From positions 32,001 to 96,000 of the IMG/VR virus record IMGVR_UViG_3300025141_008848: a stretch of DNA of 64,000 nt, one strand, 5' to 3'. The DNA comes from a virus. Below, in pieces: positions 36,555 to 58,928 of this stretch. Both the position numbers and the translations under genes were made by a program. The notes below the pieces were generated by a model. The model was not told the DNA's origin and did no database searches. It saw nothing but the letters and a program-made list of their open reading frames with translations. Every line of letters begins with the position of its first letter. The stretch's first letter is position 1.

Positions 36555-36556
36555 TT

Positions 36557-38395: not shown

Positions 38396-38511
38396 TAATC
38401 TTTACTATATTCCATTGTTAAGTACTTTTAGTTTTAATGGTGGAACTATTTATTTTATAGCCACTATAAAAATAATAAAATTATTTTATGGGGTAACAAA
38501 TAATATTAAAT

Positions 38512-42177: not shown

Positions 42178-43988
42178 TGAGTAACGAAAAAAATATAAGA
42201 ATAGTAAGAGGAGAATCTAGATTTGCTGGGTCATCCAATGTAGAAATGGTTGTGCACCCTTTCCTAGAATCTACTACGAAAGAGTTAACACAAGGAGACA
42301 GAAACCTAGTTTTAGATTTAAGAGACCAATTCGATTTTGAACGGGAGTATTGCACAAATTATAGGCTCCATGGTAAAATAGATATTTTATATAATAATAT
42401 TGTTACAGGAGAAACAAATGAACAAGATTTTAAAACATCCATGTATTTTTTACCTGACTGGACAGGGTGTCCACAAGTAGGGGGGGTACCACCAGGAAGT
42501 TGTGTTGGATTAACCCCAGCTTCTACGTTCTCATTTATGCCAGAAAAAAGATTTGGTATTAATGCTAGTTTAAATGGTTGGGAACCATTATTAGCATATC
42601 AGGATAATTGGGTACAATATATTTCTTATATTCACGATGCGGATAGTGGACAAACAATGGAGTACTATATAGACTATGGAACCTCATCAGGACTGAGTTT
42701 CATTGCAGGAGACGGAATCCCATTCCAACCCACAACTAATACCATAGACGGGAAAGAAGTTTTACAATTAATTACACCAGTACCACATGGTATACTACCT
42801 GGGGAATATGTTGAGTTACAATCTACAGCTTTAGTATTTGGGGGTGGAGCAACATTAATGGTTGATGTTCCCATAACTTCTATATTCAACCCTGTTATAA
42901 TGGGCACAAGTACACCCGCACCTCCACAAAACACATTTAAAGTAGATTCGTTAGGTAATAATTTAGCAAACTCGGAAAATTATATCATAAATGTTCAAAC
43001 CAACGGGCTAGACGTAGCATCTATACCAGCTAATGGTCCAGTAGGGACCTTAAAAAGAATAATAAATATAGATAACCCTAATGAAACAAGGTCAGAATAT
43101 TATACACAGATTCACAAATTAATAACTAACCCTAACGATTATACTTTTGATAGAACTGGATTTGAATTGGGAATATACGCTAAAAAAGGTAGAGTATATA
43201 GAGCAAAGAGAACACCAGATAATATAGAAAAAACTATAATAAAAGAACAATACGAATCTTATTTATGGAACTCAAACCAAAATATAAACATTGATAATTA
43301 TTATGATAATTTAAACCGCCCTTTAACTGATGTGTATTTAACCATTTTAACCACAAATAGAAATTTAATTTGGGACTGGAATCCAGGTGGGGTGTCTAGT
43401 CCAGCTGGTTTTGGTTGGGGTTGGAATTTTAAGAAAAATGGGACAGTTGACCCATTTGTAGATAATACACTTAATCCCATAAATTTAACACAAAACGGTA
43501 CTTTGGGTGTTACTCCATTACCAGTTAGTGGAAGTACTTTTAGAGGTGCATTTGCGGAATACAACCCATTTGAATTAAAAGAAAGAGTAATCTCTAATAT
43601 AGGTCATTCTCTAAAGTTTAATAGGGACACATTATATATGTCAGGAGGAACACCATATGATTTTGTGCCCACCATTTACAAATACCAACCACACCATAAA
43701 ATATCTTTAAAAAAATTCTCTAATTATATAAGTTATAATGATAGTTTATTTACATCACCCCAGTATGCTGTTTATTCTTCATCAGAGGAAACATTTAGGT
43801 GGAGAGAAATTTTACCTATTGAATTTTATGAAGATGGTACAAACGGTGTTAGTTATCCCTATCTAAATGATGCACATTATCCGTACCTAAATCTAGAATT
43901 TACAATAGAGGCTGTAGGACCCGCATTAATACCATATAGTTCTGGTAGCATAAACATATTATCTGAATACACTGATGGCTGTCAATAG
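42177..43988 (+). CDS. Hypothetical baseplate/tail structural protein
   Basis: Translationally coupled ORF in the structural operon, beta-rich composition. Confidence 0.5.
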   Translation: MSNEKNIRIVRGESRFAGSSNVEMVVHPFLESTTKELTQGDRNLVLDLRDQFDFEREYCTNYRLHGKIDILYNNIVTGETNEQDFKTSMYFLPDWTGCPQVGGVPPGSCVGLTPASTFSFMPEKRFGINASLNGWEPLLAYQDNWVQYISYIHDADSGQTMEYYIDYGTSSGLSFIAGDGIPFQPTTNTIDGKEVLQLITPVPHGILPGEYVELQSTALVFGGGATLMVDVPITSIFNPVIMGTSTPAPPQNTFKVDSLGNNLANSENYIINVQTNGLDVASIPANGPVGTLKRIINIDNPNETRSEYYTQIHKLITNPNDYTFDRTGFELGIYAKKGRVYRAKRTPDNIEKTIIKEQYESYLWNSNQNINIDNYYDNLNRPLTDVYLTILTTNRNLIWDWNPGGVSSPAGFGWGWNFKKNGTVDPFVDNTLNPINLTQNGTLGVTPLPVSGSTFRGAFAEYNPFELKERVISNIGHSLKFNRDTLYMSGGTPYDFVPTIYKYQPHHKISLKKFSNYISYNDSLFTSPQYAVYSSSEETFRWREILPIEFYEDGTNGVSYPYLNDAHYPYLNLEFTIEAVGPALIPYSSGSINILSEYTDGCQ

Positions 43989-44943
43989 AATACAAATAAA
44001 AGCTTCTTTAAGTGATAAATCTGTCACTATACCTATAGGTCAAACTTTTGAAGAAATAGGCCAAGAAGAATTAATCAAAACTTGGGAAGAAGTAGAATTA
44101 CAAGATAATATAAATGTTATACAAGATTATGAAACTACAAGATATGCATATAAAAATAATGCAGCTCCAGTGGGCTCAGGAGGTAGTAATACAATATCGT
44201 ATAAATTTCATTTTTGGGATGCTGCAAATCAATGGTATACTGGCACAGGTGGAAACCCCCATACATTTAATGTTGTTGGGTACCTAAACAAAGATTTAGC
44301 AAAACCAAAGAAGGCATTTACTAAAAGCTTTTTTAAATTTGATTTTTACGACTCACCTAAAAAAGAAGAACAAAAAATAATGTTTACCAATATAATGCCA
44401 TTAAATAATTGTATAAAAGTAACAACAGAAGTTGACGAACTAGAAGACCCGATAGAGTACTACTCACAAATCGCAAATGACATTATTCCACCTACCTATG
44501 GGGTATACGTACCAACAGCGATATTAAGTCCATTAAAAGGTAAAAATGAGAATTTCTATATACAATGGTTAAAAGATAGAGAATTGACACCCATTGATAC
44601 TTTTTATATGTCTTGTAAATTCTTTAATGCAAAAACTGGTAAGGTAACGAATATGATAAATGACAACCCAACACCAAGTCAAATTAATAATGGGTTAGTT
44701 CTTAATAATTTAGATTGGTTTTATTATAAAGTAAAACTTTTCATTGGACCATCCAATACTTCCACAATTATACCAAAATATAGGTATGTGGTGACTAAGT
44801 TCAATGAAGTCGCGATGCTCACCAATACTGGTGGGGTTGCGGGGACAGGACTTCCAGGTGGGACACCTGCAGACGCTGTACCAAACACACCACAAGTACC
44901 AAATGCGGTACCAATAAAATTTTATGAATATGTAAACCCTTAA
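43975..44943 (+). CDS. Hypothetical baseplate/tail structural protein
   Basis: Overlapping start. Contains 'FTKSFFKFDFYDSP' and 'FYMSCKFFNAKTG', and ends 'IKFYEYVNP'. Confidence 0.5.
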   Translation: MAVNRIQIKASLSDKSVTIPIGQTFEEIGQEELIKTWEEVELQDNINVIQDYETTRYAYKNNAAPVGSGGSNTISYKFHFWDAANQWYTGTGGNPHTFNVVGYLNKDLAKPKKAFTKSFFKFDFYDSPKKEEQKIMFTNIMPLNNCIKVTTEVDELEDPIEYYSQIANDIIPPTYGVYVPTAILSPLKGKNENFYIQWLKDRELTPIDTFYMSCKFFNAKTGKVTNMINDNPTPSQINNGLVLNNLDWFYYKVKLFIGPSNTSTIIPKYRYVVTKFNEVAMLTNTGGVAGTGLPGGTPADAVPNTPQVPNAVPIKFYEYVNP

Positions 44944-44946
44944 TAT

Positions 44947-47900
44947 ATGGAAGTATATAAATACCGAATAAAAAGAACCAACCCAAGTATATATTGGACA
45001 GTGCCCTGTACAGGAGGGACAGATTTTTGGCCTATAAACTTGAGTACTAATTGTTCTGGAATAACCATGTTTAATTCTACCTTTAGTCAAGTTAGGGATG
45101 CATTAGAGGGGGATATGAATAATTTCCCACAAGAACTAACAGGGTGCTCTATAGCTAATCCATGTGTGATTTTAAATGACACAGTAGTGTTACCAATGTT
45201 CCCTTCCCCAGACCCATTTTGTATAGATTCCTCATCTCACCCATATATTTTATTTACGGGGCTAAATCTAATCCAAATGGGGGTCCAAACATTTACGGGT
45301 GAAAGTTATAATGATATGATAAGTGTTTTTGACTTAACCAACTCAACACTATCACAACCACTAAACACTCAAACATCGGCTAATCTAATGCCGAATTCTA
45401 ATTCTTGTTTTTGTCAAAACCCTTTAGGTACAAACTTAAACCAAATACCTATTCTATTAGACCAAGATTTTAATGATATTGGTCACTACGATATTTGGGA
45501 TGGGAATATTGGACAAAAAGATATTTTTTCTAATTTTGTTGTTACAGCGACTACGACTGCGGGAAATAAAATAAAAATATTTAACTCTACAGATTTTGGT
45601 TATTATAAAACATTTCAGGATTCACCATATACTATAAATTGGGGTGATTGTAATTGTAATTGTCCTGTCCCCCCATGTGTTAATTCATTTGGTGACCCTT
45701 GTTGTGAAACTTTACAATTTCCTAATTTGACAAATCCGGTAGACCATACTTATGGTGGGGTTGGTTCTCGAAAAATTACCATAACCCATGAAAGTCCATG
45801 GGGACCTACTTCGGTGTCACAAATGATTACTGTCCCCTTCATGAATTATAACGCATTATTAGCGACAGGAAATATACCTTCTTTTGTGTCCCCAGTTATT
45901 GGACCTAATGGTCCAGTTGGAACTAATTCTTATTTTGGAGCTTACCCATCTACCCCATTAGATTCCGGTACGGATATAATGCAATATAGTGGAATGTCAC
46001 CTATCTTTGCTGGGGGAAATAATAATGACTGTTTTGATGTCACAGGAAATACCGAAAGTTTATTAGGAGCATTCCAAAACTATACAACATCAAGTACTGC
46101 GGGCTTACCACCAGGATACCAACAAGGTATCACAGTACCTCTTATGGGGCAGGTTTTAAATCCAATCACTAATACATTAGTACAAGGAGTTTCTGGTAAA
46201 ATAACACAAGTAAATGCACAATATACGGCATATACAATTAGTATTGGAACCAACACACCAATAACCTTTTATGATTTTAGTAATGGTGTTACTCTCTATG
46301 AAGCTGTAAGTTGCGGGTTAGACGCGTTTGCGTTTGCAGCATTTGATTGTGTTAAATGTGAACTAGGGGATTGTACATATTGTGAAACAAAAGATGAATA
46401 TATTGATAGGATTACATTTTTACCAGAATCCATAACGTTTAATGCCCAACATGGGGAGTGGTTACCTACTACTAATTATGTTGTTGGGGATATTGTTTTT
46501 GATAGTACTTGGGGGGAATGTTGTTGTTATATGGCAGTAAAAGATATAACACAAAGCGCTACTACTCTTTCCCCATGGGCAGGAGTAAAACCAACAGATA
46601 CATTCCAAGGTGTGTGGTGGTATAATGGACAACCAACTGAACATATTTGGGAAGCGTGTACGCCAGAATGTGAAAGTTGTCCTGATTATACCGCAATACC
46701 TTGTTATGACCCAACAAACTGGTTAAACGCATATCCTACATTTGGTCCTCCAGGACCTGCAGGGGTTTATAGTAATGGTAACAATTATACTGCAGGAACA
46801 TTTACGGTTAGTCAATTCGGTAATTGTTATAGAGCATTACAAACAGGAACACTACCACCACCAACAGGACTAACTAATAACGCATATTGGGATTACATAG
46901 GGTGTTCTAGTTGGATATGCCCACCAGTATCCGCTTTGACAGCTGGAACTGTAGCGTGTGAACTGGTTCCTGGAACTGGGTCTACCAGTACTGGACCATG
47001 TACAACTATAGGTTATACCTCATACAATGATTGTTTTGACGATTTTTTAAATGGTGAGTGTTGTGAAGATAGGTATATATGTACTGACCAGTATTCATGT
47101 CAAGGGTGTACAGGGATAACTTCAGCTCATCCATTATATAATGACCCAAGTGGTTTAGACCCCTTACAAGGTCCAGTTTTTGACTCTGAGCTAGATTGTA
47201 ATGCGTGGTGTAACCCACCAGCATTTTCGTGTACTACTCAGATAGCGTCATCTAATAATTGTTGTGTTTCACTTTCATGTGCTGAGGATAACTTAAATGG
47301 AACCCCAGGATATTATAGTAGTGTGGTATTACCCGTTATTGCTGCCGCTGGTACAAACCCAGCACCTTTCTCAAATATGATTGATTACATAGCGTCTAAT
47401 TATGCTTTATGGTTCGTAAGCCCTCTTACAACACCTAACCCATACGACATTAACGATTGTAATTTAGGTGTGGTAGGGATTGCTACTGCATGTTGTGATT
47501 ATACAATATGGGTTTATAATTGTGAAGATGGGTGTATTCCCGCATTTGCTGGTGCAGGGTGGCCAACACCAGGTGATTGTTGGGCTGCTAATCCACAATG
47601 GGCGGGTTATGGGACAACCCCATGTGGTTGGATATGTGACCCTGTTTGTGAACCCTGTGTCGAGGTATACCAACTTGGTGTGGGATACCCCTACACCCCA
47701 CAAGGATTACTTGATTGTGAAATGAATTGTTCTTGTGTTACTGACTGTTACATATGTGACTGTACCGCAACAACAACAGGGGTAAATATAAATTGTGATT
47801 TATACCACGACCCTATTACAGGTCTAGCCGGTTGTCCCCATTGGCCACCAAATGAAGGTATCCCAGTAAACCCAGGAGACCCATTAACCTACTTATACCA

Positions 47901-50900
47901 AACTAATTGTCTATCCGCGTGTACTTGTGAAGGTGGTATTGATTGCTTTATATCCTCTATTGATGGAACACAGATGGGTGGATGTAGTTCATACCCAAGT
48001 TTGTGGCATATGGCACAACAAAATGCAACATGGAGTTTAGGGTCACCAACAGACGCTGCGGGTAACCCTACGGGGTATACCACTGTAGAAGAATGTTGTT
48101 TGGCCACCGAGTGTTGTTGGGCTGTATGTGAAGAAGACCCAGCTGTTTATGACCCTGGTTATTTTGGTATTACCCCTTCAGTTAATCCAGCGTTACAAGG
48201 TGGTGGTGGTGGTACTTACCCATGTTGGTGGTATTCACAGTCAGTACCAGATGTGTATAGTGATTTCGGGGGTGGACAACCTTCTAATTGTTGTAGTCCC
48301 TTATATATTAATAATGCAGGAGCTAATACGGGATTAGCTGGTTGTATTCAAGACCATCCAAATCACCCATATTGTGATATGATAGATTGTATAAATTCAT
48401 TATGTCCACAACCCGCCCCTTCTAATGAAATGATGTGTTGTGTCCCACCAGAAAACTCATGTATATGTGCATGTGATACTTGGATAGCACAAAATGGTAG
48501 TATATTAGTGCCTAGTTGGGAAGGACCTTGGAACGTAGGAATTTATTTAGAAGGAGATACTGTAAGTTACGGTGATGGTAATACACCAGACTGTTGTTGG
48601 ATATGTACATGTCCATATGACCCATTATCACAAGTATTTGGGAGTGGTGTGTTTGATTGTAGTAGTTCACCACCAGATGATGGACCATACAGTAATGGTC
48701 AACCCAACTGTTGGCAAACTTGTGAAAGGTTACCAGCTACGTTCCCTTCTCCACCATCAAATATAGTAGGTGACCCATGTGGACCTTGTAGTGGTCATGT
48801 TCCACCTGTAACGTATTCTTGTAGTACGGCAGGTTGTTTAGCTTCTACTTGTGTTTTTAATCCAGGTGGGATGAACCCGTCTATATGGGCAACACAAATG
48901 AATTGTTATGATAATCCTATGTGTGACACACCAGCATATCCAGGATATGACCAGTGTAGAGCAGATTGTTATTGTGCAGACCCAAATCCACTTGCTGAAG
49001 TTACAAGTTGTACCGTATTACAAGATTATTTAAATGATATATACTCCCCAGGGGCTCTGGGAGGTGTTAATGGCTGGATTGCAGGTACCGGATGGTACTC
49101 AACTTGGCCAATGACTTATCCACCAGTACAACCAGGACTTATATTTAATACTAGTGGTTCATTTTGGTGGCAATATTCATCGTTCGATGATTGTGTGTTG
49201 GGGGTAAATGCTGGTGTAGATTGTTGTGACACCTCAGGATTTACATACGCTTGTGATGATACATGTAATTGCCCAACGGTAAATGGAAATCCATGTGTTG
49301 GTGGTACAGGATGTTACGTAGTAACGAGTGGTCCTCCAGGACCTTTCACATCAATGGGTCAATGTCAAGCCTGGTGCACATGGGAATGTGACCCAACAGG
49401 ACCACAAATATGTATATTTAATGCATTATCGATAGCAGCTACTACATATCCATCGGCATTAGCATGTAGCGTCGCTAATACTAATTGTGAATGTGTTAAT
49501 GGTACTGTAGAGTACTGGTGTGATTGGGCAGGTGCAGACGCAGGATATTATAACACATTGGGAGCAGTCCCTTGTGTAGACAGTGTATATATGTCCAGCC
49601 AAGTTCCAGCATATCAAGCTATGGCGATAGGACAAGGAGCTACAGGACCTGCAGACCCGGCAAATAATTATCATGACGCGGTAGTCTTAGGGAATAATCC
49701 TACGGGACAAGGATTCCCAACAATACAACAATGTCAAGAAAAGTGTAGATTCTGTTGTGATTGTGCACCTCCAGGTTCAGGTATTTGTGATTTATGTGGA
49801 GACCCCGCTGTCACAATATGTAGTTGGGGTGACCAATTCTGTAGTGCAGGTACTGCCTGTCAATATGGAAGTAGTTACCTATCACCTTATGACTGCCAAC
49901 AAAATACAACTCCATATCCTTGTGCAGCACCGATTACTGAATATTGTTGTCATGCAGTAGATGGGTGTCTATCATATATGGGGGCGTATGTAGCGGGGAC
50001 CAACCCAGTTACAAGTGATGGTGTGGGTTGTGTAAGTTTCCATACCATAGCAGGATGTGATGGGGAATGTAATTTTGTATGTGGGGATTGTACACCAACC
50101 GGAGGACAATGTGATTGTACTTTTGTAAATACATTAACACCTAATTGTCTTGCACCTTATCCATTTACTACGATGGCAGACTGTCAATTCTATCTTAGTA
50201 CAGCTGTCAACCTTTTATATGATGCTGGGTCTTGTTGTAGATGTTATGATTGTTTTTTAAATAGTCCTATAACATATTCCGCATATGATGTGGGAAGTAG
50301 TACATGGATAACAATGAGTACCCCTATACCTACGTTTACCACTAGTGCACTAGCATGGGTAGCAGGTACCCAATATAATACGGGAGATGTTGTTAGTGAA
50401 CTTTTTGATGGTGATGACTGTTGTTATGTTTGTGTTTGGGGAGCTAATGAAACAGGAGGTATAACAACTAACTGGACATGGAATCCTTCTTTCTATTATA
50501 CAGCGTATGTTAATGATGTTGGGTTAGGTAACCCAGTTTGGCCAGGTGGTGGTACTGGAAGTTTGGCGTGGATACCTTGTGACGCAGGATGTGTAAATGT
50601 CCAAATAATTACATATAATTGTATTCCAGGAGCAATCTTCGATAGTTGTGAGTATGATACAAATGGTAATCTAATGAATTTAATAGTACCAACCACAGTA
50701 TTTTTATCTCAAAATGATGTAGTAAGGAGATTAGCGGACCCACTGGGGACACCAAATCTTCAATCAACTAATATATTTACAATTAAATTTCCATATGGTG
50801 GATGGCCAGTAGGTTATCCAGCAAACCCTTGTCTATATAATGGATTTCCCCTAGCTATTGCGGGAGGTTTTCTCAGCATAGATAGTGATATGGCAATGCA

Positions 50901-53900
50901 ATACGGCATCCCACAAGATTATGTATCCTGGTCCCAACTTATTGCAGCTCTGGTAAGTGTAGGTGTTGTGGATTACAGTGGTACCCTGGTAAGTCTAACT
51001 AGTACTTTTGACGAAGTATGTGAAGCAATATGGCTAGCAATTGGGTCGATGCCAGGTTCACTACCAAAGTGTATTACCATTACGATAGACCCATGTGAGT
51101 GTACTCAAAGTACATGTGATTGTGTAGCAGTTAATGGACCAGGAGGACAATTCACTAATCTTGGAGATTGTCAATCACTTCTAAATAACGTACCTTGTTG
51201 TGGTACCTGGTATTGTCCAGGACAAACTAACTGTACCTGCGTATTCCAACCTAATATATTAACTGGGTTTGCCACCCAAATAGATTGTTATAACGCTGTT
51301 AATTGTTGTGAAATACAAGAACCAGAATATGCCTGTATAGTAACAGCTCCATCTCCATCATTCGGAATACCTGATGTGTGTGACTGCATACAAACACCAG
51401 GAGGACCTTATACCGGACCAAACGCACTACTTGATTGTCAAACTGACCCAAATACTTGTTGTTCAGGTACTACAATGCCAGACTACTGGAAATGTGAATT
51501 ACAACCTGGGGGTAACTGTCTGTGTGTACTAGACCCCTCACCAACGATTAATTCTTTTACTAGTCTATTTGATTGTCAATCAACACCAGTCTCCAATTGT
51601 TGTTGGACAGGAGTAAGCTACACACATTATTGGGAGTGTATAGATTTCGGAGGTACCATAGGGTGTGAGTGTGTACAAACATCAACAGGTGCATGGCCTA
51701 CATCTGGAGACTGTGAAGCTCAACAAAGTCTATGTTGTTACAGTGGGGTTACAAAATGGGATTGTAAAGACCCGGGGAATGGTAATTGTACGTGCGTACA
51801 ATCAATATTTGGATTCTATACCAGTTTATATAATTGTGAACATAGTATACCTGCAGTAGTCCCACACCCAAACTGTTGTGAAAAAATTTATGGAAATTGT
51901 AAAACATGTGATGGAGCACAGCTAATCCATACAACAGGTAAACATTACGGTCCCCTAGGTGGGCTAGGTATAGCTTCTACAAATGGTGTAACCCTAGCAC
52001 CAATTGTGGATAGGGGTTTATGGGTTACAGGAACGAATAACTACGTATACTTAGATGTGGTAGAAGACCCATTGGATGGTTGTTGTTACGCACTTATTCA
52101 AACGACAAATCATAGTGGGGTTAATATGTTAGGGCCAGGAAGCCCACTTCTAACCTACTCACCAAGTATTGTGTATAATAACCACATTAACGGTTATTTT
52201 GCTGATGGTTCATATAATTCAGCTCCAGGTCCATGTGCAACAATACAACAAGTTTTTTGTCCATGGTGGCCTTGTGACCCTAGTTGTGTAGGAACAGTAA
52301 AAGGGTATGATTGTGATAATTGTCCCGGAACGTGTGTTTGTAACCCTAATAATACCGCAGGTGCTACGTTCCAAGGTCCAGGAGCATTAGCAGCGTGTCA
52401 AGCAGTTTGTATACAAGGGTGTGATGATTGTGCAGTTAGTTTAGCTGGTTATCTCACCGGACCAGTACAGTATGAGGGTGTATGGAGTGCTACTTTTAAT
52501 CCTCCATGGCATGTGTATGATATTAATGATTGTGTGGTAGACCCTGCAGACAACTGTTGTTATTGTTGTGTTGAAGACCCTACCGTTCTCAATCCGTGTA
52601 CACCAAACACACCACCACAACTATGTAAAGTGGCTGGGGAGGTATGGCATCCATTCCCAATATGTAAGTGTATGAAGCCAAATATACAACAATCCAAATC
52701 GAAAGCTAATCCGTGCATACCACAACCTTGTGCTCCTAATGAAACTTGGTTCGGAAACCCAATATGTGATTGTGTCCCGAACGGTCCTGGTGGTTCAGGT
52801 CCTGGTGGTTCAGGAAATATTAACGGATGTGCCGCCAAACATCAACCATCACTCAATCTTGGTGTGAGTGTTGGTGGTGTTGGGTCTATACCAGTAACAT
52901 GGGCAGATTGTAAACAAGATATAAATGGAGACCCATGTGGTCCTGGTGGCTCGAATCCAATTTGCAAGGACTGTGGTCCTGGTGCGATTACCTTCGATTA
53001 CTATGACCACAATACCAGTACCTGGCAGACGGCTAATATCACTGCCACACCCACCCTCCCAATTCCAGTATGGACACCAGGCACTTACACACCTACCGGT
53101 CAACAGGGTAACGTTGTTATGCATAACGGGTGTTGTTTTGTTGTTTGTAACACACACTCAACACCGACAACATATCTCAACCTATCTCCGACAGATGATT
53201 ATATGGAATACTTATGGTGTATGTCACAACACCCTGGAGGAAATCCACTTGATTGGCCAACACTAATGTCTGCCTTTGGTCAAAATCCTATGGCACAAGT
53301 TGTATATTTCCCATGTGATAAAGATTGTGTACCAAGTGTCCCTATAAGAAACAAGAGATATGATTGTAAACGACAAGCAACGTTGGGGAACCCAAATAAT
53401 ATGGGATGCGTACCAAACCCAAATGGAGTTTATGTAGATTTACCAACATGTCAAATTAACTGTAACCAACAGGAAGAATGTAAACAATGTTGTCAAAATA
53501 CTAATTGGGAACCAGGATTATCTGATGCAATGTCAATGACGAGCTCGTATACACTCCTACAATCAAACGCAAATCCGTGTGATTGTGAATTTTGGTTAGG
53601 TGTTGGTTGGGTTCCAGTACCACTTTCAAAATGTAAGGTACGAGATGGTTGTGTACAAGTTAAGGTATGTGACTCACCTTATGTGTGGGCAGGACAACCG
53701 ATATGTGATTGTGTTCTCCCAAACGATATCCCACACGAGGACTGGGCCCATGATGATGGTTGTGTACAAGATAAGGAATGTGAGAATGGTTGGACCTGGT
53801 CATGGAAATTATGTGACTGTGTTATTGAAACCAGAGAAAGATGTATGGAAAGAGAATGTGCAGCAGGAAAATTTTGGGATAAGGAAGTATGTAATTGTGT

Positions 53901-53922
53901 ACCACATAAAAAAATACCCTAA
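44947..53922 (+). CDS. Giant (2991 aa) cysteine-rich multi-repeat protein, putative fibre/adhesin
   Basis: PKD-like N-domain ('YTINWGD..HTY'), then about 2500 aa with roughly 10% Cys by eye, CBM5/12-like W-x-Y-xx-GD-x-V modules, 6-Cys tandem repeats and C-terminal C-x(4-6)-W-x(4-5)-C-x-C repeats. Confidence 0.7.
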   Translation: MEVYKYRIKRTNPSIYWTVPCTGGTDFWPINLSTNCSGITMFNSTFSQVRDALEGDMNNFPQELTGCSIANPCVILNDTVVLPMFPSPDPFCIDSSSHPYILFTGLNLIQMGVQTFTGESYNDMISVFDLTNSTLSQPLNTQTSANLMPNSNSCFCQNPLGTNLNQIPILLDQDFNDIGHYDIWDGNIGQKDIFSNFVVTATTTAGNKIKIFNSTDFGYYKTFQDSPYTINWGDCNCNCPVPPCVNSFGDPCCETLQFPNLTNPVDHTYGGVGSRKITITHESPWGPTSVSQMITVPFMNYNALLATGNIPSFVSPVIGPNGPVGTNSYFGAYPSTPLDSGTDIMQYSGMSPIFAGGNNNDCFDVTGNTESLLGAFQNYTTSSTAGLPPGYQQGITVPLMGQVLNPITNTLVQGVSGKITQVNAQYTAYTISIGTNTPITFYDFSNGVTLYEAVSCGLDAFAFAAFDCVKCELGDCTYCETKDEYIDRITFLPESITFNAQHGEWLPTTNYVVGDIVFDSTWGECCCYMAVKDITQSATTLSPWAGVKPTDTFQGVWWYNGQPTEHIWEACTPECESCPDYTAIPCYDPTNWLNAYPTFGPPGPAGVYSNGNNYTAGTFTVSQFGNCYRALQTGTLPPPTGLTNNAYWDYIGCSSWICPPVSALTAGTVACELVPGTGSTSTGPCTTIGYTSYNDCFDDFLNGECCEDRYICTDQYSCQGCTGITSAHPLYNDPSGLDPLQGPVFDSELDCNAWCNPPAFSCTTQIASSNNCCVSLSCAEDNLNGTPGYYSSVVLPVIAAAGTNPAPFSNMIDYIASNYALWFVSPLTTPNPYDINDCNLGVVGIATACCDYTIWVYNCEDGCIPAFAGAGWPTPGDCWAANPQWAGYGTTPCGWICDPVCEPCVEVYQLGVGYPYTPQGLLDCEMNCSCVTDCYICDCTATTTGVNINCDLYHDPITGLAGCPHWPPNEGIPVNPGDPLTYLYQTNCLSACTCEGGIDCFISSIDGTQMGGCSSYPSLWHMAQQNATWSLGSPTDAAGNPTGYTTVEECCLATECCWAVCEEDPAVYDPGYFGITPSVNPALQGGGGGTYPCWWYSQSVPDVYSDFGGGQPSNCCSPLYINNAGANTGLAGCIQDHPNHPYCDMIDCINSLCPQPAPSNEMMCCVPPENSCICACDTWIAQNGSILVPSWEGPWNVGIYLEGDTVSYGDGNTPDCCWICTCPYDPLSQVFGSGVFDCSSSPPDDGPYSNGQPNCWQTCERLPATFPSPPSNIVGDPCGPCSGHVPPVTYSCSTAGCLASTCVFNPGGMNPSIWATQMNCYDNPMCDTPAYPGYDQCRADCYCADPNPLAEVTSCTVLQDYLNDIYSPGALGGVNGWIAGTGWYSTWPMTYPPVQPGLIFNTSGSFWWQYSSFDDCVLGVNAGVDCCDTSGFTYACDDTCNCPTVNGNPCVGGTGCYVVTSGPPGPFTSMGQCQAWCTWECDPTGPQICIFNALSIAATTYPSALACSVANTNCECVNGTVEYWCDWAGADAGYYNTLGAVPCVDSVYMSSQVPAYQAMAIGQGATGPADPANNYHDAVVLGNNPTGQGFPTIQQCQEKCRFCCDCAPPGSGICDLCGDPAVTICSWGDQFCSAGTACQYGSSYLSPYDCQQNTTPYPCAAPITEYCCHAVDGCLSYMGAYVAGTNPVTSDGVGCVSFHTIAGCDGECNFVCGDCTPTGGQCDCTFVNTLTPNCLAPYPFTTMADCQFYLSTAVNLLYDAGSCCRCYDCFLNSPITYSAYDVGSSTWITMSTPIPTFTTSALAWVAGTQYNTGDVVSELFDGDDCCYVCVWGANETGGITTNWTWNPSFYYTAYVNDVGLGNPVWPGGGTGSLAWIPCDAGCVNVQIITYNCIPGAIFDSCEYDTNGNLMNLIVPTTVFLSQNDVVRRLADPLGTPNLQSTNIFTIKFPYGGWPVGYPANPCLYNGFPLAIAGGFLSIDSDMAMQYGIPQDYVSWSQLIAALVSVGVVDYSGTLVSLTSTFDEVCEAIWLAIGSMPGSLPKCITITIDPCECTQSTCDCVAVNGPGGQFTNLGDCQSLLNNVPCCGTWYCPGQTNCTCVFQPNILTGFATQIDCYNAVNCCEIQEPEYACIVTAPSPSFGIPDVCDCIQTPGGPYTGPNALLDCQTDPNTCCSGTTMPDYWKCELQPGGNCLCVLDPSPTINSFTSLFDCQSTPVSNCCWTGVSYTHYWECIDFGGTIGCECVQTSTGAWPTSGDCEAQQSLCCYSGVTKWDCKDPGNGNCTCVQSIFGFYTSLYNCEHSIPAVVPHPNCCEKIYGNCKTCDGAQLIHTTGKHYGPLGGLGIASTNGVTLAPIVDRGLWVTGTNNYVYLDVVEDPLDGCCYALIQTTNHSGVNMLGPGSPLLTYSPSIVYNNHINGYFADGSYNSAPGPCATIQQVFCPWWPCDPSCVGTVKGYDCDNCPGTCVCNPNNTAGATFQGPGALAACQAVCIQGCDDCAVSLAGYLTGPVQYEGVWSATFNPPWHVYDINDCVVDPADNCCYCCVEDPTVLNPCTPNTPPQLCKVAGEVWHPFPICKCMKPNIQQSKSKANPCIPQPCAPNETWFGNPICDCVPNGPGGSGPGGSGNINGCAAKHQPSLNLGVSVGGVGSIPVTWADCKQDINGDPCGPGGSNPICKDCGPGAITFDYYDHNTSTWQTANITATPTLPIPVWTPGTYTPTGQQGNVVMHNGCCFVVCNTHSTPTTYLNLSPTDDYMEYLWCMSQHPGGNPLDWPTLMSAFGQNPMAQVVYFPCDKDCVPSVPIRNKRYDCKRQATLGNPNNMGCVPNPNGVYVDLPTCQINCNQQEECKQCCQNTNWEPGLSDAMSMTSSYTLLQSNANPCDCEFWLGVGWVPVPLSKCKVRDGCVQVKVCDSPYVWAGQPICDCVLPNDIPHEDWAHDDGCVQDKECENGWTWSWKLCDCVIETRERCMERECAAGKFWDKEVCNCVPHKKIP
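51094..51879 (+). repeat. Six tandem Cys-rich protein repeats (6-Cys pattern)
   Basis: Consensus [W/Y]xC-x(5-14)-CxC[V/I]-x(~8)-[F/Y/W]-x(5-8)-C-x(5-12)-CC, e.g. WKCELQPGGNCLCVLDPSPTINSFTSLFDCQSTPVSNCC. Confidence 0.8.
52783..52814 (+). repeat. 15-bp tandem duplication (GPGGS x2 linker)
   Basis: GGTCCTGGTGGTTCA repeated twice. Confidence 0.85.
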
Positions 53923-53930
53923 AAAAGATA

Positions 53931-54572
53931 ATGGAAAAAATAAGTACACCACTAGAAAAAGAATGGGGTAAGGTTTTTAAATTTGAAGTAGGCCCCATTA
54001 AAGTAACTAAAAAACTTTATAGGCCTACCATTAAAAGATTTGAAAAGTGGTTAAATATAATAGAAAAAGAAGAGTATTTTAATAAATTTGATTTCCTACT
54101 AACAGGTTCTTTCCCTAACTATATTAATAATAATCTACCTTGGCAAACTTGGGATATAGATATTATTTTAATTGATAACGGAAATAATAGTTTAGAATTA
54201 ATTAGAGATACACTGGTACATCTATCTACAATAGCATTAGAACAATGTGATTTTTATATAGATGTTTATTACCAGAATAAAAAAAATGTGGAATTAAACA
54301 AAGTTTGTTATAGAGGAGGTATAAAAAATTGTAAACCTTACAGTTTTGAAAAAGTAGGATTATCTTACGCACCTCATGTTAAAAGAGACGGTGTTATAGT
54401 ATCTAATTGGAATATTGATGAAGAGGTTATAAATGGATTATGGGTTACCAGACTACAATTTCCTTCCGCAAAACAAATCCAAAGAATCAATACTGGATTT
54501 AAATATGATGACGAGATTTACTTAAGTGAGTACAAAAAACATTTTCCACTAATAGAAACAGTAGATAAATAA
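53931..54572 (+). CDS. Pol-beta-superfamily nucleotidyltransferase
   Basis: 'FLLTGSF' + 'WDIDIIL' + 'YIDVY' give the hG[GS]-DhD-D catalytic pattern. Confidence 0.7.
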   Translation: MEKISTPLEKEWGKVFKFEVGPIKVTKKLYRPTIKRFEKWLNIIEKEEYFNKFDFLLTGSFPNYINNNLPWQTWDIDIILIDNGNNSLELIRDTLVHLSTIALEQCDFYIDVYYQNKKNVELNKVCYRGGIKNCKPYSFEKVGLSYAPHVKRDGVIVSNWNIDEEVINGLWVTRLQFPSAKQIQRINTGFKYDDEIYLSEYKKHFPLIETVDK

Positions 54573-54601: not shown

Positions 54602-54823
54602 ATGGGACTGAGTGAAGTAAAAGTAACGGGATGTATATTACCTTTAACTAAATTAGAGGTTTTAATGAATATGGTACAAAGACCAGAAGTAAGGTCAAAT
54701 ATATTTATTGAAAGAGGTAAAGTGACAGTTTTTGAGAAAGCACAAAGGTTAGGACAAATAAACAGTATAGGTGAATTAGAATTACACGGATACGGATACT
54801 ATAAAGTAGAAAAACAACCATAA
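54602..54823 (+). CDS. Small structural-type protein, possibly the detached C-terminal domain of the 44947 protein
   Basis: Has its own TATTTATT motif (54582-54589). Contains 'PEVRSNIFIERGK..FEKAQRLGQINSIGEL..GYGYY'. Confidence 0.55.
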   Translation: MGLSEVKVTGCILPLTKLEVLMNMVQRPEVRSNIFIERGKVTVFEKAQRLGQINSIGELELHGYGYYKVEKQP

Positions 54824-54826
54824 ATT

Positions 54827-55750
54827 ATGGCATTAGGAGCATACGGAATTAAGAGACCAGCAGATGTAAAAGTAGAAGACGTACAAATACTTGTTCATCA
54901 ACAAGCTAGTAGAGACTCATCAGCAGCACCTTCAGTCTATGAGGTACCAGCAACCACAGTATTAACCCCAATACTCCACGCTTCACCTACTCAAACTGGA
55001 GGACCCGCAGGTGAAATTTTGGGGGGACTTTACGATTTACAATTACCCTCAGCAGTATTCGCTAGTAGAGGGATTTATACGGTATATATTAGACCAGTAG
55101 AAATCAGAACAACAATATTGGATTGTGGGATTTTATCGTCACTACCAAATGTAAAAGGACTTGTATTTGACCTTAACTCGATACCACTACAGTATAGAAA
55201 TAGGTTTTCCCCTATGGATTTAGTGGGGTATAGAATAGAATATCTAGATTCAGACAGTGGTGCAAAAATTAATAACTTTTTTAGGATAGTTACCTCTAAT
55301 TTTTATTGTGCGACAGTAGAACAAAATAACACCAACCCAAATCAAACATCACCTAGATATGTTTATACAAACGCAAAAACTAATTTAGTATATTGTACAC
55401 TAACACCAACCAGTGCACCATCTAATAACCCTAACGCAATACCATTTATAGGACAACCAGGACAATCTGTAATAATCACAAACACTTATTTTAACCCTAT
55501 AGTACTTGATATAGAAATGGTAGACCATGATTTCGACACTCTAGCTATTGCACTTTATGGTAATCAAGCAAAATCTATAGATAGTGGAATTTACACCCTT
55601 TATGATTTAAGTGGTGCGGATAACATATACATGCAATATGATTTATATGAGGTTAGAGACCAATTTAACGGACAATTATTCGAAATTAAACAAAATAGAG
55701 GAAACAATATTGATTTTAGTCAAATGTTTGGTACAATAACTAACTTTTAA
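54827..55750 (+). CDS. Hypothetical structural protein
   Basis: Operon position. Contains 'EILGGLYDLQLP', 'GIYTVYIRP' and 'LVGYRIEYL'. Confidence 0.55.
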   Translation: MALGAYGIKRPADVKVEDVQILVHQQASRDSSAAPSVYEVPATTVLTPILHASPTQTGGPAGEILGGLYDLQLPSAVFASRGIYTVYIRPVEIRTTILDCGILSSLPNVKGLVFDLNSIPLQYRNRFSPMDLVGYRIEYLDSDSGAKINNFFRIVTSNFYCATVEQNNTNPNQTSPRYVYTNAKTNLVYCTLTPTSAPSNNPNAIPFIGQPGQSVIITNTYFNPIVLDIEMVDHDFDTLAIALYGNQAKSIDSGIYTLYDLSGADNIYMQYDLYEVRDQFNGQLFEIKQNRGNNIDFSQMFGTITNF

Positions 55751-55755
55751 AAATT

Positions 55756-58700: not shown

Positions 58701-58923
58701 AAAAGAATATATAGATAAATCCGTATTTACAAAAAAAGGTAGTACTAGTAATTTATTATGTATACATGGTATGAAGGAGCTACGTGGTGGAGATACAACA
58801 TGGTTAGAAAGTTATCGATTAACCCCTAGACCAAGTACACAAAGAGGCGGAATTGAGGGTGGTACCACTATAAATACTAGTAGTCAAGTGAACCACTCTG
58901 GGAGAATGGGTGGTAGTTATTAA
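55756..58923 (+). CDS. Baseplate wedge protein (gp7/P2 gpI-like domain)
   Basis: 'NIPNELIKNFAQTLGW' and 'LYRRILLNTGYLFKSKGTRKSIEFLLGLLG' resemble the gp7/tail-I 'KGT' motif. Confidence 0.6.
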   Translation: MASNRFRYPPAPNHGGDTFSDYLVGNQFMGSQQMTLGNFYSMPPYGKPNSPEYNVGTFSTPITLESLNIENLALAQQLSSNNLEVFVNNNISDISSFVLYGSLKKRLSIAVQNIVNFFPGALFVDGIDTNYLPGNTTAYDILYNLATEETTFKTNVNILSNPFSIEFTTNGNQMNENISPEQILNNFEMFGISANTLINIADGTTSSLRNLTKEFKKYSLSFSGKVGEKEYRITNLEPQNTNNNYLVFTVKGNPFNVSTLAGASPTLTTNTFYIKPTQQQTEEEFKKFQSIEAFLVNRGVSPIYTATFNTIKETTEGVKYYDKIKKTWPLEDNVNIDTTTENYTNYLISLSELGEELDQEKTNLISRFLTSPILKEFDGTNQKIEKTLQIYGRSFDDIKTFVDGISYMTNVSYDGENNIPNELIKNFAQTLGWSTPSTLNNTTFLDSVLGVNTPQYSGTSVSKTPAELDIELYRRILLNTGYLFKSKGTRKSIEFLLGLLGAPEALVEFNEYVVLADAPIKLDSGVKFVWASQPNAVTEPSYEKVESKFTNQWQKISGGSYTTTTINYSIPFGQYYYSTGTTQNPFTLVDYPIDSQGYPTTPRITNNYFFQRGAGWFEMTDKHKSELVINISASTLTGCTPNIVNKFSEFTWGGFWTLGQYSNSVKCPYLDRFRRFPHMSFGFGLTRMIDDKKSWVLKEGTQYRDYSFNNRDAYYQTQNEKLVLNVKNVELGLNIGQGLTYDVWKQSAQSDCFFSGGTLPYPYPTTGGRWDSTNPKINAKTTDFKTFKDHFWKVFIDAKNRMTINDGKTGGYPTLQKIYLDYLYKSCGENNKYTYNKMIEYAQSMGDYWIKIIEQMVPATTLWTSGVKIQNSAFHRDKFVYQCFNVTGTSLSTVLSSTLLVSSTGFTGFPAPQFMSAPPSLRIAAPPQSGTTFYNNLLSGALVIPRSTYANSYNIDNQGKTFGGALTSKETNKLANKFHSNKKEYIDKSVFTKKGSTSNLLCIHGMKELRGGDTTWLESYRLTPRPSTQRGGIEGGTTINTSSQVNHSGRMGGSY

Positions 58924-58928
58924 AAGTT

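What the first reader, a model, noticed from the sequence alone, without database searches (positions are those of the whole stretch)
44947..53922. A 9-kb gene for a cysteine-rich, multi-module giant protein in a phage baseplate operon
Seen: after an ordinary ~460-aa N-terminal region, about 2500 aa contain roughly one Cys in ten (by eye), much Pro/Gly/Thr/Trp/Tyr, very little Lys/Arg, and at least three interleaved repeat types. Established: tailed phage virions assemble in the reducing cytoplasm and their fibres are normally Cys-poor, whereas such composition is typical of secreted eukaryotic matrix, mucin or silk proteins. Inference: this is a long beads-on-a-string virion appendage, either disulfide cross-linked after lysis or metal-stabilised, used to stick to particles or glycans. 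It could be an undescribed class of phage appendage.
Basis: partly seen in the sequence, partly recalled or inferred. Interest (0 to 1): 0.85.

Follow-up and report, generated by a model that had tools for sequence, protein, structure and literature searches.

The report
Giant cysteine-bead phage baseplate fibre
An uncultured marine giant phage makes a 2,991-residue tail-base protein, one residue in twelve a conserved cysteine, that grew as a huge insertion into an ordinary 390-residue baseplate protein and is most likely a long sugar-binding fibre of small cross-linked beads.

Summary
ORF 44947-53922 encodes 2,991 aa with 255 Cys (8.5%) and 2.1% Lys+Arg; other ORFs of the window have 0-3% Cys. 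It is real. 22 complete relatives of 2,440-2,966 aa lie in IMG/VR contigs. Contigs of other marine runs tile it. Cys is by far its best-conserved residue.

Residues 1-495 are the orthologue of a Cys-free ~390-aa protein. That protein fills the same baseplate-operon slot in at least 568 viral loci. The 2,500-aa Cys-rich array is an insertion near that protein's C-terminus. The displaced last ~61 residues survive as a separate 73-aa gene (54602-54823). Relatives keep unsplit and differently split stages.

Two modules fold like CBM5/12 chitin-binding domains and one segment like a PKD domain. The rest has no relative outside the family.

Best reading: a baseplate-anchored adhesive fibre of small, probably disulfide-locked beads. 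Disulfide versus metal is unresolved, and virion presence is inferred from gene order. This scan has already reported close relatives on other DNA. It is a new variant of a known kind.

The parts
44947..53922 (+). Giant ORF, 2,991 aa, 255 Cys
   Evidence: 22 complete relatives of 2,440-2,966 aa with 7.4-8.7% Cys. Mean Cys conservation is 0.83, against 0.27-0.53 for every other residue type.
44947..46431 (+). aa 1-495: anchor part, orthologous to the ~390-aa single-chain baseplate-slot protein (aa 166-494 align to its profile positions 51-315)
   Evidence: hhalign prob 99.6, E 1.5e-24. The short protein occupies the same slot in the 80 loci examined. This is the best-conserved part of the giant.
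45505..45846 (+). aa 187-300: PKD/Ig-like beta-sandwich with a Cys-rich loop inserted after its WGD motif
   Evidence: VIA-align Z 6.9-7.8, rmsd 2.2-3.2, 71-83 residues aligned to PKD and SGBP-B domains. PKD-repeat proteins hit this part of the profile. The Pfam PKD model is below threshold in relatives only. Local pLDDT is about 50-75.
46432..53919 (+). aa 496-2991: Cys-rich array (236 Cys, 9.5%; K+R 2.0%; D+E 8.9%), inserted into the ancestral protein
   Evidence: No relative outside the giant family for profile positions ~550-1125 among 1.84 billion representatives. No PDB sequence relative.
46756..46905 (+). aa 604-653: CBM5/12-type module (most canonical copy)
   Evidence: VIA-align to the CBM12 of Vibrio chitin-oligosaccharide deacetylase 3wx7_A 331-380: Z 6.1, rmsd 1.4, 47 aligned, 26% identity. 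4nz1, 4nyu and 9jeo are alike. Local pLDDT 52-72.
50341..50592 (+). aa 1799-1882: CBM5/12-type module with a CC pair
   Evidence: SmChiB CBM5 453-497: Z 4.0, rmsd 1.6, 44 aligned, 32% identity. Also Moritella and Chromobacterium chitinase CBMs, the S. griseus ChiC ChBD, the Pa193 fibre, the 7-7-1 fibre and the Pam1 tailspike, Z 2.9-4.1. Pfam CBM_5_12 E 1.7, below threshold.
46459..46530 (+). aa 505-528: W..Y..GD.V..CC motif. Further copies at aa 1191-1218 (48517-48600), 2359-2381 (52021-52089), 2513-2541 (52483-52569) and 2709-2731 (53071-53139).
   Evidence: Regex. Pairwise self-similarity 25-34% identity, E 2e-7 to 6e-6 against the protein's own pieces. The fold of these copies was not individually confirmed.
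49375..49488 (+). aa 1477-1514: example of the beta-hairpin + helix Cys bead
   Evidence: The AF2 secondary structure repeats E-E-H per bead. Weak likeness to Kunitz/BPTI domains: Z 3.0-3.9, rmsd 1.4-2.6, 35-38 aligned. Local pLDDT is only about 50-64.
50629..51066 (+). aa 1895-2040: Cys-poor alpha/beta island inside the array (3 Cys in 146 aa)
   Evidence: Secondary structure. No row of the fold searches covers it.
51082..51879 (+). aa 2046-2311: six tandem 6-Cys units (C, CxC, C, CC)
   Evidence: Alignment A4 has 5 invariant Cys columns. HMM self-matches i-E 1e-12 to 5e-15. The units vary in number among distant relatives (gaps).
52597..53919 (+). aa 2551-2991: variable distal part with C..W..CxC repeats. 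The only K/R-richer stretch (19 K+R in the last 191 aa).
   Evidence: Mean identity to 21 complete relatives 0.10, aligned fraction 0.46. Composition. Repeats.
53931..54572 (+). Optional 213-aa gene between the giant and the 73-aa gene (another first-reader note called it a nucleotidyltransferase)
   Evidence: Present in 10 of 22 complete loci; in the other 12 the gap is 53-84 nt. No Pfam, NCBIfam or PDB-sequence match, so its identity is not confirmed here.
54602..54823 (+). 73-aa gene: the detached C-terminal ~61 residues of the ancestral baseplate protein
   Evidence: hhalign to the last 61 of 361 profile positions of the short orthologues: prob 99.2, E 7.1e-20. Found after the giant in 24 of 24 loci that reach beyond it (one, L006, is cut after 17 residues), 62-97% identical. 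It lies in another reading frame than the giant (coordinates).
36087..44943 (+). Upstream block: gp25-like (36087-36554), gp6-like wedge (36557-38395), then 1221-aa, 603-aa and 322-aa genes
   Evidence: PHROGs. Order conserved in all relatives' loci examined.
54827..62705 (+). Downstream block: 307-aa, 1055-aa and 1258-aa genes of the same conserved order
   Evidence: No family match.

Best explanation
The gene encodes a baseplate-anchored giant fibre or adhesin of an uncultured marine myovirus. CheckV's completeness figures put the genome at roughly 320-375 kb.

Shown:
- Residues 1-495 are the orthologue of a ~390-aa, Cys-free, PKD-containing protein. In a much larger group of uncultured phages that protein sits between the same 322-aa and 307-aa genes, downstream of the gp25/gp6-like wedge genes.
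- A ~2,500-aa array of small Cys-rich modules has been inserted about 60 residues before that protein's C-terminus.
- The displaced C-terminal piece is kept as a separate, well-conserved 73-aa gene.
- Other lineages keep an unsplit 1,134-1,151-aa form and a form cut in the middle of the insertion.

Inferred:
- The anchor part and the 73-aa piece reassemble in the baseplate periphery as the single-chain protein does.
- The array projects outwards as a flexible string of about 50 beads. These are beta-hairpin + helix beads with 4-6 Cys, about seven CBM5/12-type modules and one Cys-poor domain.
- Each bead is too small for a hydrophobic core and is held by cross-links. I think these are disulfides (about 60%) rather than metal sites.
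- The chain is strongly acidic and almost free of Lys and Arg. That would make it poor in trypsin-type cleavage sites and non-sticky towards anionic surfaces.
- The CBM5/12-type modules give weak, multivalent binding to a polysaccharide, either a host envelope glycan or chitin-like particles.
- The fast-evolving distal 440 residues set specificity.
For: A real gene under selection:
- 20 clusters and 34 loci hold relatives.
- 160 of 255 Cys are at least 90% conserved; Cys mean conservation is 0.83 overall and still 0.69 among the nine distant relatives.

Independent DNA.

Baseplate slot:
- Gene order RNR, gp25-like, gp6-like, 1221, 603, 322, giant, 307, 1055, 1258 in all loci examined.
- The short orthologue sits in the same slot. 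Of 80 loci, 80 match the 322-aa gene, 79 the 603-aa, 74 the 1221-aa, 74 the 307-aa, 71 the gp6-like and 71 the 1055-aa gene.

Insertion and fission:
- hhalign prob 99.6 and 99.2.
- The 73-aa gene is present in 24 of 24 loci that extend past the giant.
- Unsplit forms L124 and L125, and the mid-split form L127.

Fibre-like evolution:
- The giant is the fastest-evolving gene of the block, 33-62% identity against 45-94% for its neighbours.
- Identity falls from 0.51 at the N-terminus to 0.10 at the C-terminus.

Sugar-binding modules: CBM5/12 fold matches at 24-32% identity. BFVD hits to phage proteins named chitin-binding or CBM5/12.

Disulfide rather than metal:
- Where relatives lack a conserved Cys they have mostly S/T/V/A/Y/G/I; His accounts for 4 of 298 replacements.
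- Neighbouring Cys are lost together: 1222/1255 in 12 sequences, 1667/1695 in 11, 2085/2096 in 4.
- CxxC knuckles are not enriched: 21 observed against 22.8 +/- 4.1 in shuffles.
- Weak likeness of a bead to Kunitz domains.
- Printed precedents of disulfide-bonded myophage baseplates and fibres: Pam3, PMC9942802 (passages), and Milano, PMC10811340 (passages).
Against: - No virion proteome, image or isolate exists. Nearest cultured phages share only 25-35% identity in sheath and wedge proteins and lack the gene.
- Both AF2 models are poor (mean pLDDT 51.9 and 50.0). No Foldseek PDB match reached E 0.001. The CBM and Kunitz matches have Z 3-6 on segments of pLDDT ~50-75.
- Pfam CBM_5_12 scores 9.1 bits against a cut-off of 26.2.
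- I could not read the coordinates, so no Cys-Cys distance was measured.
- Cys totals are odd in 13 of 23 giants, so not every Cys can sit in an intrachain disulfide.
- 21 of the 60 variable Cys columns are lost singly, and clade structure confounds the co-loss counts.
- No sulfhydryl oxidase or DsbA was found in this record or in five relatives' records. Only glutaredoxin (5 of 5) and thioredoxin (1 of 5) were found, which phages with ribonucleotide reductase often carry (from general knowledge). The records are 28-66% complete.
- In the unsplit relatives both ends of the insertion are anchored. The array may therefore be a loop or net rather than a free fibre.
Confidence: 0.6

Rival explanations
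1. Same appendage, but the beads are held by metal ions (Zn or Fe bound by four Cys). They would then fold in the reducing cytoplasm during assembly, as intracellular Cys-rich modules do.
For: - Virions assemble in the cytoplasm.
- No oxidase was found.
- 4-Cys beads have two Cys in a hairpin and two in a helix, a layout that zinc-finger-like folds also use (recalled).
- T4 fibre tips bind metal through His (recalled, not from a call).
- Cys totals are often odd.
Against: - Cys to His exchange is rare: 4 of 298 replacements.
- CxxC is not enriched.
- CC and CxC pairs are frequent (26 and 28), and a bead weakly resembles disulfide-rich Kunitz domains.
- About 59 metal sites per chain would be costly in metal-poor sea water, and thiolate sites oxidise in oxic water (inference).
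Confidence: 0.22
2. The array is not a free-ended fibre. It would be a loop or net anchored at both ends, cross-linking neighbouring wedges or fibres around the baseplate, comparable to the garland around the Milano receptor-binding complex.
For: - In the unsplit relatives L124 and L125 the insertion starts and ends in the same protein.
- In L127 each half of the ancestral protein carries half of the array.
- Odd Cys counts leave room for interchain disulfides.
- The garland is described in PMC10811340 (passages).
Against: - In this lineage the array ends in a free, highly variable C-terminus.
- The 73-aa piece is a separate gene in another frame.
- The Milano garland proteins contain no Cys.
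Confidence: 0.12
3. The protein is not part of the infectious particle. It would be released at lysis as a free adhesin or decoy, or act only during assembly.
For: - There is no direct evidence of virion presence.
- No RNA holder was listed, which is no evidence either way.
Against: - Its first 495 aa are the orthologue of a protein fixed in a baseplate operon in at least 568 loci.
- The matching 73-aa piece is kept under stronger conservation than the array.
- It has no signal-peptide-like hydrophobic N-terminus (sequence).
Confidence: 0.05
4. Assembly or annotation artefact: a chimeric contig or a non-coding open frame.
For: It is a metagenome-derived contig of a low-GC genome with a GC-richer stretch (0.40-0.43 against 0.31-0.35).
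Against: - 22 complete relatives keep the frame open over 7.3-8.9 kb.
- Independent runs tile the gene.
- Cys-specific conservation.
Confidence: 0.01

Closest known systems
Unnamed ~390-aa PKD-containing protein of the same baseplate-operon slot in related uncultured phages (alignment A5; 1,823 clusters, named only 'hypothetical protein' except one stray translation-factor label among the 120 listed)
   Same: - Homologous over aa 166-494, plus the 73-aa gene.
- Same neighbours on both sides.
- Similar N-terminal start.
   Different: - The short form is one chain with 0-1% Cys and 5-9% K+R.
- Here the protein carries a 2,500-aa Cys-rich insertion, further Cys-bearing inserts at aa ~20-165 and in the PKD loop, and is split into two genes.
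Phage receptor-binding proteins carrying CBM5/12-type domains (Pa193 baseplate/fibre 9b45_2, phage 7-7-1 fibres 9rkv_M, Milano 8fqc_Q1, cyanophage Pam1 tailspike 7eea)
   Same: - The same small module fold (Z 2.9-4.1).
- Location at the baseplate periphery.
- BFVD lists many phage proteins named chitin-binding among the matches.
   Different: - Those proteins are hundreds of residues long and not Cys-rich.
- Here the modules carry added CC pairs and are interleaved with about 40 Cys beads.
- No sequence-level match to any of them.
Disulfide-bonded myophage virions: Agrobacterium phage Milano (PMC10811340) and cyanophage Pam3 (PMC9942802)
   Same: They show that baseplates and fibres of contractile phages can carry functional disulfides, confirmed by cryo-EM, mass spectrometry and DTT treatment (passages read).
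   Different: - There a few interchain bonds link ordinary domains. Cys is 2.1% in Milano structural proteins.
- Here Cys is 8.5% and appears to be the folding principle of each small bead.
- No homology was found.
Bacterial CBM5/12 chitin-binding domains (Serratia ChiB CBM5, Vibrio COD CBM12, S. griseus ChiC ChBD)
   Same: Fold and 24-32% identity over 44-49 residues, including the W..Y..GD.V signature.
   Different: - Below the Pfam threshold.
- Most copies replace the second aromatic strand motif by CC[YFW] and add a distal Cys.
- Ligand unknown.
Kunitz/BPTI-type small disulfide-rich domains (comparison of working principle only)
   Same: A beta-hairpin plus C-terminal helix of ~35-40 residues held by cross-links instead of a core (Z 3.0-3.9).
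   Different: - The bead has 4 Cys with other spacing, not the six-Cys Kunitz pattern.
- The match is weak and on a low-confidence segment. It is not a member.

Membership tests
Single-chain ~390-aa baseplate-slot protein family (unnamed, A5) | Homology of the body (profile positions 51-315) | tested here: met
   hhalign prob 99.6, E 1.5e-24, giant aa 166-494. The family also came up in the library-wide profile search.
Single-chain ~390-aa baseplate-slot protein family (unnamed, A5) | Conserved C-terminal ~60-residue motif on the same chain | tested here: not met
   The motif is absent from the giant and from all other giants (hmmsearch). It is encoded by the separate 73-aa gene 54602-54823. 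The giant keeps only the first ~15 residues of it (aa 480-494).
Single-chain ~390-aa baseplate-slot protein family (unnamed, A5) | Position between the 322-aa and 307-aa genes, downstream of the gp6-like wedge gene | tested here: met
CBM5/12 carbohydrate-binding module (Pfam PF02839) | Score over the Pfam gathering threshold | tested here: not met
   9.1 bits against 26.2, E 1.7, aa 1803-1817 only. Short relatives give E 0.03-0.07.
CBM5/12 carbohydrate-binding module (Pfam PF02839) | Small three-stranded fold superposable on solved CBM5/12 domains | tested here: met
   - aa 604-653: Z 6.1, rmsd 1.4, 47 aligned, 26% identity.
- aa 1801-1882: Z 4.0, rmsd 1.6, 44 aligned, 32% identity.
- Two of about seven copies. 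The models have only moderate local confidence.
CBM5/12 carbohydrate-binding module (Pfam PF02839) | Binding of chitin or another polysaccharide | not testable with these tools
   Needs recombinant modules and glycan or chitin binding assays.
PKD domain | Beta-sandwich fold with the WGDG-type motif; Pfam PKD threshold | tested here: inconclusive
   - Fold Z 6.9-7.8 on aa 187-300, a range the tool calls common.
- A WGD motif is present.
- No Pfam PKD hit in the giant at E <= 10.
- Relatives give E 0.004-0.066, below threshold.
- PKD-repeat proteins hit the profile.
Phage tail fibre / receptor-binding protein (generic) | Conserved proximal anchor, variable distal end, gene in the baseplate/fibre block | tested here: met
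Phage tail fibre / receptor-binding protein (generic) | Physical presence on the virion; oligomeric state | not testable with these tools
   No isolate. No match in 50,697 phage records.
Zinc-ribbon / zinc-knuckle type metal modules | Paired CxxC (or CxxH) knuckles; Cys/His interchange among relatives | tested here: not met
   CxxC 21 against 22.8 +/- 4.1 in shuffles. His is 4 of 298 replacements at conserved Cys columns. This does not exclude other kinds of metal site.
Kunitz/BPTI domain | Six Cys in the canonical spacing and the full ~55-residue fold | tested here: not met
   The matched bead, aa 1477-1514, has 4 Cys. Only 35-38 residues align, at Z 3.0-3.9.

The most novel reading that the evidence does not exclude
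The fibre is built as an unfolded, thiol-rich, highly acidic chain in the cytoplasm. It 'cures' only after lysis, when oxic sea water closes roughly 118 disulfides per chain. Infectivity, reach and stiffness of the appendage would then be switched on by the redox state of the environment.

The baseplate socket is rebuilt by split-protein complementation between the 495-aa anchor and a 73-aa peptide. Because of this, a loop of a baseplate protein could expand without limit (390 to 1,150 to 3,000 aa) and be cut at different places in different lineages.
Probability: 0.25. Interest if true: 0.85.

Novelty: new variant of a known kind. Interest (0 to 1): 0.7.

Why it matters
- It would be the most Cys-rich large phage structural protein I could find any trace of. 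It comes from a phage lineage seen in marine metagenome runs of 21 studies.
- It makes an old question directly testable: how a particle assembled in a reducing cytoplasm acquires on the order of a hundred cross-links per chain.
- It offers a natural series (unsplit, mid-split, end-split) showing how a baseplate protein loop became a 2,500-residue appendage and how gene fission tolerates it.
- The small Cys beads have no relative in Pfam, PHROGs or PDB sequences, nor among 1.84 billion representative proteins for the 1-1200 part. They are candidates for new minimal protein folds.
- If the CBM5/12-type modules bind chitin or host glycans, the fibre bears on how large marine phages find hosts or ride on particles. 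This is comparable in spirit to Ig-like capsid decorations binding mucus (recalled, not from a call).

Tried and rejected
**Led nowhere**
- Whole-protein self-BLAST returned only the identity hit. I replaced it with a comparison of 100-aa pieces.
- Pfam, PHROGs and NCBIfam gave nothing significant for the giant or its neighbours 38512-62705.
- PDB sequence searches with profiles A1 and A5 gave nothing, or only PKD at E 0.02-0.18.
- The ESM Atlas gave no usable lead.
- tblastn and megablast against 50,697 phage records found no match for the giant, for the 1,057-aa or 399-aa relatives, or for the 15-kb flank.
- PHROGs gave nothing for ten short orthologues.
- Foldseek against the PDB gave nothing at E <= 0.001 for either model.
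- No row of the fold searches covers aa 30-160, the six tandem units or the Cys-poor island. The tool warns that such parts are barely tested, so I do not claim that they are new folds.

**Host and origin**
- Two scans of 185,579 species genomes, with A2 and A5, found no relative. There is therefore no prophage copy and no host hint.
- No RNA holder was listed.
- Parts of the gene lack cover in runs X6 and X8; I draw nothing from that.

**Lead from earlier agents of this scan**
- They reported that the 4-Cys bead also occurs in T9SS-secreted Flavobacteriales proteins. My one search with the bead region of P0036 returned 2 proteins, itself and one phage-type relative, and no such protein.
- That search depends on shared 5-residue words, so the lead is neither confirmed nor refuted here.

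**Redox enzymes**
- Evr1_Alr, DSBA and thioredoxin were not found in this record.
- In five relatives' records, Evr1_Alr 0 of 5, thioredoxin 1 of 5 and glutaredoxin 5 of 5, four of them over the cut-off.
- I reject these as evidence for a dedicated oxidation pathway.

**Rejected readings**
- A simple read-through joining the giant to the 73-aa gene: they lie in different frames here and in the relatives I checked by hand (coordinates).
- The 213-aa gene as a necessary partner: it is present in only 10 of 22 complete loci.

**Literature**
- Four full-text searches listed no paper on a Cys-rich giant fibre of marine phages.
- I read passages of PMC9942802 and PMC10811340 only. All other papers were seen as search listings.
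- Supplements were not opened.

Full report
**1. Observation**

The frame 44947..53922 (+) is open for 2,991 codons.
- It holds 255 Cys (8.53%), 64 Lys+Arg (2.14%), 262 Asp+Glu, and much Gly, Pro, Thr, Asn, Tyr and Trp.
- The other 27 ORFs of at least 200 aa in the window have 0-2.95% Cys and 4-22% Lys+Arg.
- Counted from residue 496, the array has 236 Cys in 2,496 residues (9.5%), with a median spacing of 6. The first 495 residues have 19 Cys.
- GC is 0.40-0.43 across the gene against 0.31-0.35 beside it. I attribute this to the codons of Cys, Gly and Pro (inference).

Repeat types are real:
- Six tandem 6-Cys units at aa 2046-2311.
- About seven modules with a W..Y..GD.V..CC signature.
- 4-Cys units ending in Cx3C.
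- C..W..CxC units near the C-terminus.

**2. Is it real?**

- A whole-length search of 5.8 billion protein clusters gave 20 relatives of 1,730-2,997 aa, none named and none with a Pfam domain.
- Two scans of IMG/VR gave 34 loci. 22 of them hold a complete gene of 2,440-2,966 aa with 7.4-8.7% Cys and 1-2.4% Lys+Arg.
- In the alignment of 21 proteins, Cys is conserved at 0.83 on average, against 0.27-0.53 for all other residue types. 160 of 255 Cys are at least 90% conserved. Among the nine most distant relatives Cys is still at 0.69, against 0.10-0.33 for the rest.
- Near-identical DNA stands in 23 listed runs of 21 studies, nearly all labelled marine metagenome.
- Three contigs of run X3 tile the whole gene at about 97% identity, and X2 holds identical pieces. 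The run flagged as a possible source was left out.

**3. Setting**

- The window is bases 32001-96000 of a 128-kb IMG/VR record that CheckV rates 34% complete. A relative's 210-kb record is rated 66%. The genome is therefore probably 320-375 kb.
- PHROGs identifies a tail sheath, baseplate hub, gp25-like and gp6-like wedge proteins, and replication genes.
- The nearest cultured phages are Microcystis phage Mel-JY01 and the Flavobacterium phages 'immuto', at 25-35% identity in sheath and wedge proteins. None has the giant.
- The order RNR, gp25-like, gp6-like, 1221-aa, 603-aa, 322-aa, giant, 307-aa, 1055-aa, 1258-aa is kept in every relative's locus examined.
- The giant is always the most diverged gene: 33-62% identity against 45-94% for the neighbours.
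- Identity to 21 complete relatives falls from 0.51 (aa 1-495) through 0.37, 0.34 and 0.25 to 0.10 (aa 2551-2991), where under half of the residues can be aligned.

**4. What it grew from**

- A profile of aa 1-1200 was run against 1.84 billion representative proteins and found 167 proteins.
  - Giants and fragments of giants cover the whole profile.
  - Every other hit maps only to positions ~130-550.
  - So the Cys-rich part between ~550 and 1125 has no relative outside the family.
- The other hits are mostly proteins of 300-550 aa with 0-1% Cys and 5-9% Lys+Arg.
- Eighteen of them (A5) were used to scan IMG/VR.
- In those 80 loci the short gene lies in the same slot as the giant. 80 match the 322-aa gene, 79 the 603-aa, 74 the 1221-aa, 74 the 307-aa, 71 the gp6-like and 71 the 1055-aa gene. 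I did not examine the misses; many loci are cut by contig ends.
- The family has 1,823 clusters at E <= 1e-10, named only 'hypothetical protein' except one stray translation-factor label among the 120 listed. It has no PHROG.

**5. Insertion and fission**

- Between the optional 213-aa gene and the 307-aa gene lies a 73-codon ORF, 54602-54823.
- It aligns to the last 61 of 361 profile positions of the short family: hhalign prob 99.2, E 7.1e-20.
- Giant aa 166-494 align to positions 51-315: prob 99.6, E 1.5e-24. The giant keeps the first ~15 residues of the C-terminal motif before the array begins.
- The 73-aa gene follows the giant in 24 of 24 loci that reach past it (one, L006, is cut after 17 residues). 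The other ten end at or inside the giant. It is 62-97% identical, better conserved than the giant.
- It lies in another frame than the giant (coordinates).
- The 213-aa gene between them is present in 10 of 22 complete loci. Elsewhere the gap is 53-84 nt.

Intermediates exist in the same slot:
- L124 and L125 encode one chain of 1,151 and 1,134 aa (4.4-4.6% Cys), made of anchor, ~700-aa Cys-rich insertion and C-terminal motif.
- L127 is cut in the middle of the insertion. It has a 1,049-aa gene (anchor + beads) and a 1,076-aa gene (beads + C-terminal motif).

The array is therefore an insertion into a baseplate protein that has been cut at different points in different lineages.

**6. Modules**

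- Both AF2 runs (aa 1-1200 with 31 sequences, aa 1201-2400 with 24) gave poor models: mean pLDDT 51.9 and 50.0. Only local statements are possible, and I had no access to the coordinates.
- aa 187-300 is an Ig/PKD-type sandwich: Z 6.9-7.8.
- aa 604-653 superposes on the CBM12 of Vibrio chitin-oligosaccharide deacetylases: Z 6.1, rmsd 1.4 Å, 47 residues, 26% identity.
- aa 1801-1882 superposes on the CBM5 of Serratia chitinase B: Z 4.0, rmsd 1.6 Å, 44 residues, 32% identity. It also matches other chitinase CBMs and the same small domain in the Pa193, 7-7-1, Milano and Pam1 tail proteins.
- BFVD matches include phage proteins named PKD-domain, chitin-binding or CBM5/12.
- Pfam CBM_5_12 stays below threshold.
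- The Cys beads are predicted as beta-hairpin plus helix, repeated many times. One weakly resembles the hairpin-helix part of Kunitz domains: Z 3.0-3.9.

**7. Cross-links**

For disulfides:
- Replacements at conserved Cys columns are mostly Ser, Thr, Val, Ala, Tyr, Gly and Ile; His is 4 of 298.
- Neighbouring pairs are lost together: 1222/1255, 1667/1695, 2085/2096.
- CxxC is not enriched, while Cx3C, CxC and CC are mildly so.
- Myophage baseplates and fibres with functional disulfides are in print: PMC9942802 and PMC10811340 (passages).

Against disulfides, or open:
- 21 variable Cys columns are lost singly, and relatedness inflates the co-loss counts.
- Cys totals are odd in 13 of 23 giants.
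- No oxidase was found in incomplete records.

I put disulfides at about 60% and metal sites at about 22%.

**8. Comparison and novelty**

- The kind is known: a baseplate-attached receptor-binding appendage with carbohydrate-binding modules.
- The variant is not known. It has 8.5% Cys against 2.1% in the structural proteins of Milano and 0.9% in T4. It has bead modules without any catalogued relative. It originated as a loop insertion with gene fission.
- Four literature searches listed nothing on it.
- Earlier agents of this scan reported close relatives (2,894-2,918 aa and others) in other genomes, with much the same reading, including the 390-aa ancestor and the 73-aa remnant. I reached the fission result from this window's own data. 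I could not reproduce their T9SS-bead lead in my one search.

**9. Verdict**

- Confidence: about 0.95 that this is a real, selected gene derived from the baseplate-slot protein; about 0.8 that it is a virion appendage; about 0.6 for disulfide beads; about 0.5 for glycan binding.

Noticed in passing
window 53931-54572: A 213-aa gene sits directly behind the giant, and another first-reader note called it a nucleotidyltransferase. It is optional (10 of 22 complete relatives' loci) and matched nothing in Pfam, NCBIfam or PDB sequences, so that name is unconfirmed.
   Followed up: partly
window 50629-51066 (aa 1895-2040 of the giant): A Cys-poor ~146-aa alpha/beta island lies in the middle of the Cys-rich array. 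It is poorly conserved among distant relatives and has no fold match. It could be a distinct binding or enzymatic domain.
   Followed up: partly
L127:8837-15241: In another lineage the same baseplate protein is cut in the middle of its Cys-rich insertion into two ~1,050-aa genes. The second half carries motifs of the type GCTD..A.NY....DDGSC, which are also seen in P0039, P0043, P0046 and P0062.
   Followed up: partly
window 38512-42177: The 1221-aa gene after the gp6-like wedge gene has 2.95% Cys, the second highest in the window. I did not study it.
   Followed up: no
window 58929-62705: aa 1181-1230 of the 1258-aa downstream protein resemble a bead of a giant relative (P0005 aa 2712-2762; 43% identity, E 4e-4). 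Cys beads may therefore be shared among several tail proteins.
   Followed up: no
G000:C1:24626-27775 (outside the window) and G000:C1:100764-101546: Two further ORFs of the same record are moderately Cys-rich: 1049 aa at 4.0% and 260 aa at 4.6%.
   Followed up: no
window 20993-27352: A 2119-aa ORF has a weak C-terminal M23 peptidase / endolysin-like match (Pfam E 0.0047, PHROG E 0.00047). It may be a tape-measure or tail lysin protein.
   Followed up: no
run X3 (coded 'organism A'): A 2025 run that is not labelled as a metagenome holds the whole gene at ~97% identity and word depth ~52-60, far above the marine metagenome runs. It may be an enrichment or a host-associated sample. I did not pursue it.
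   Followed up: no
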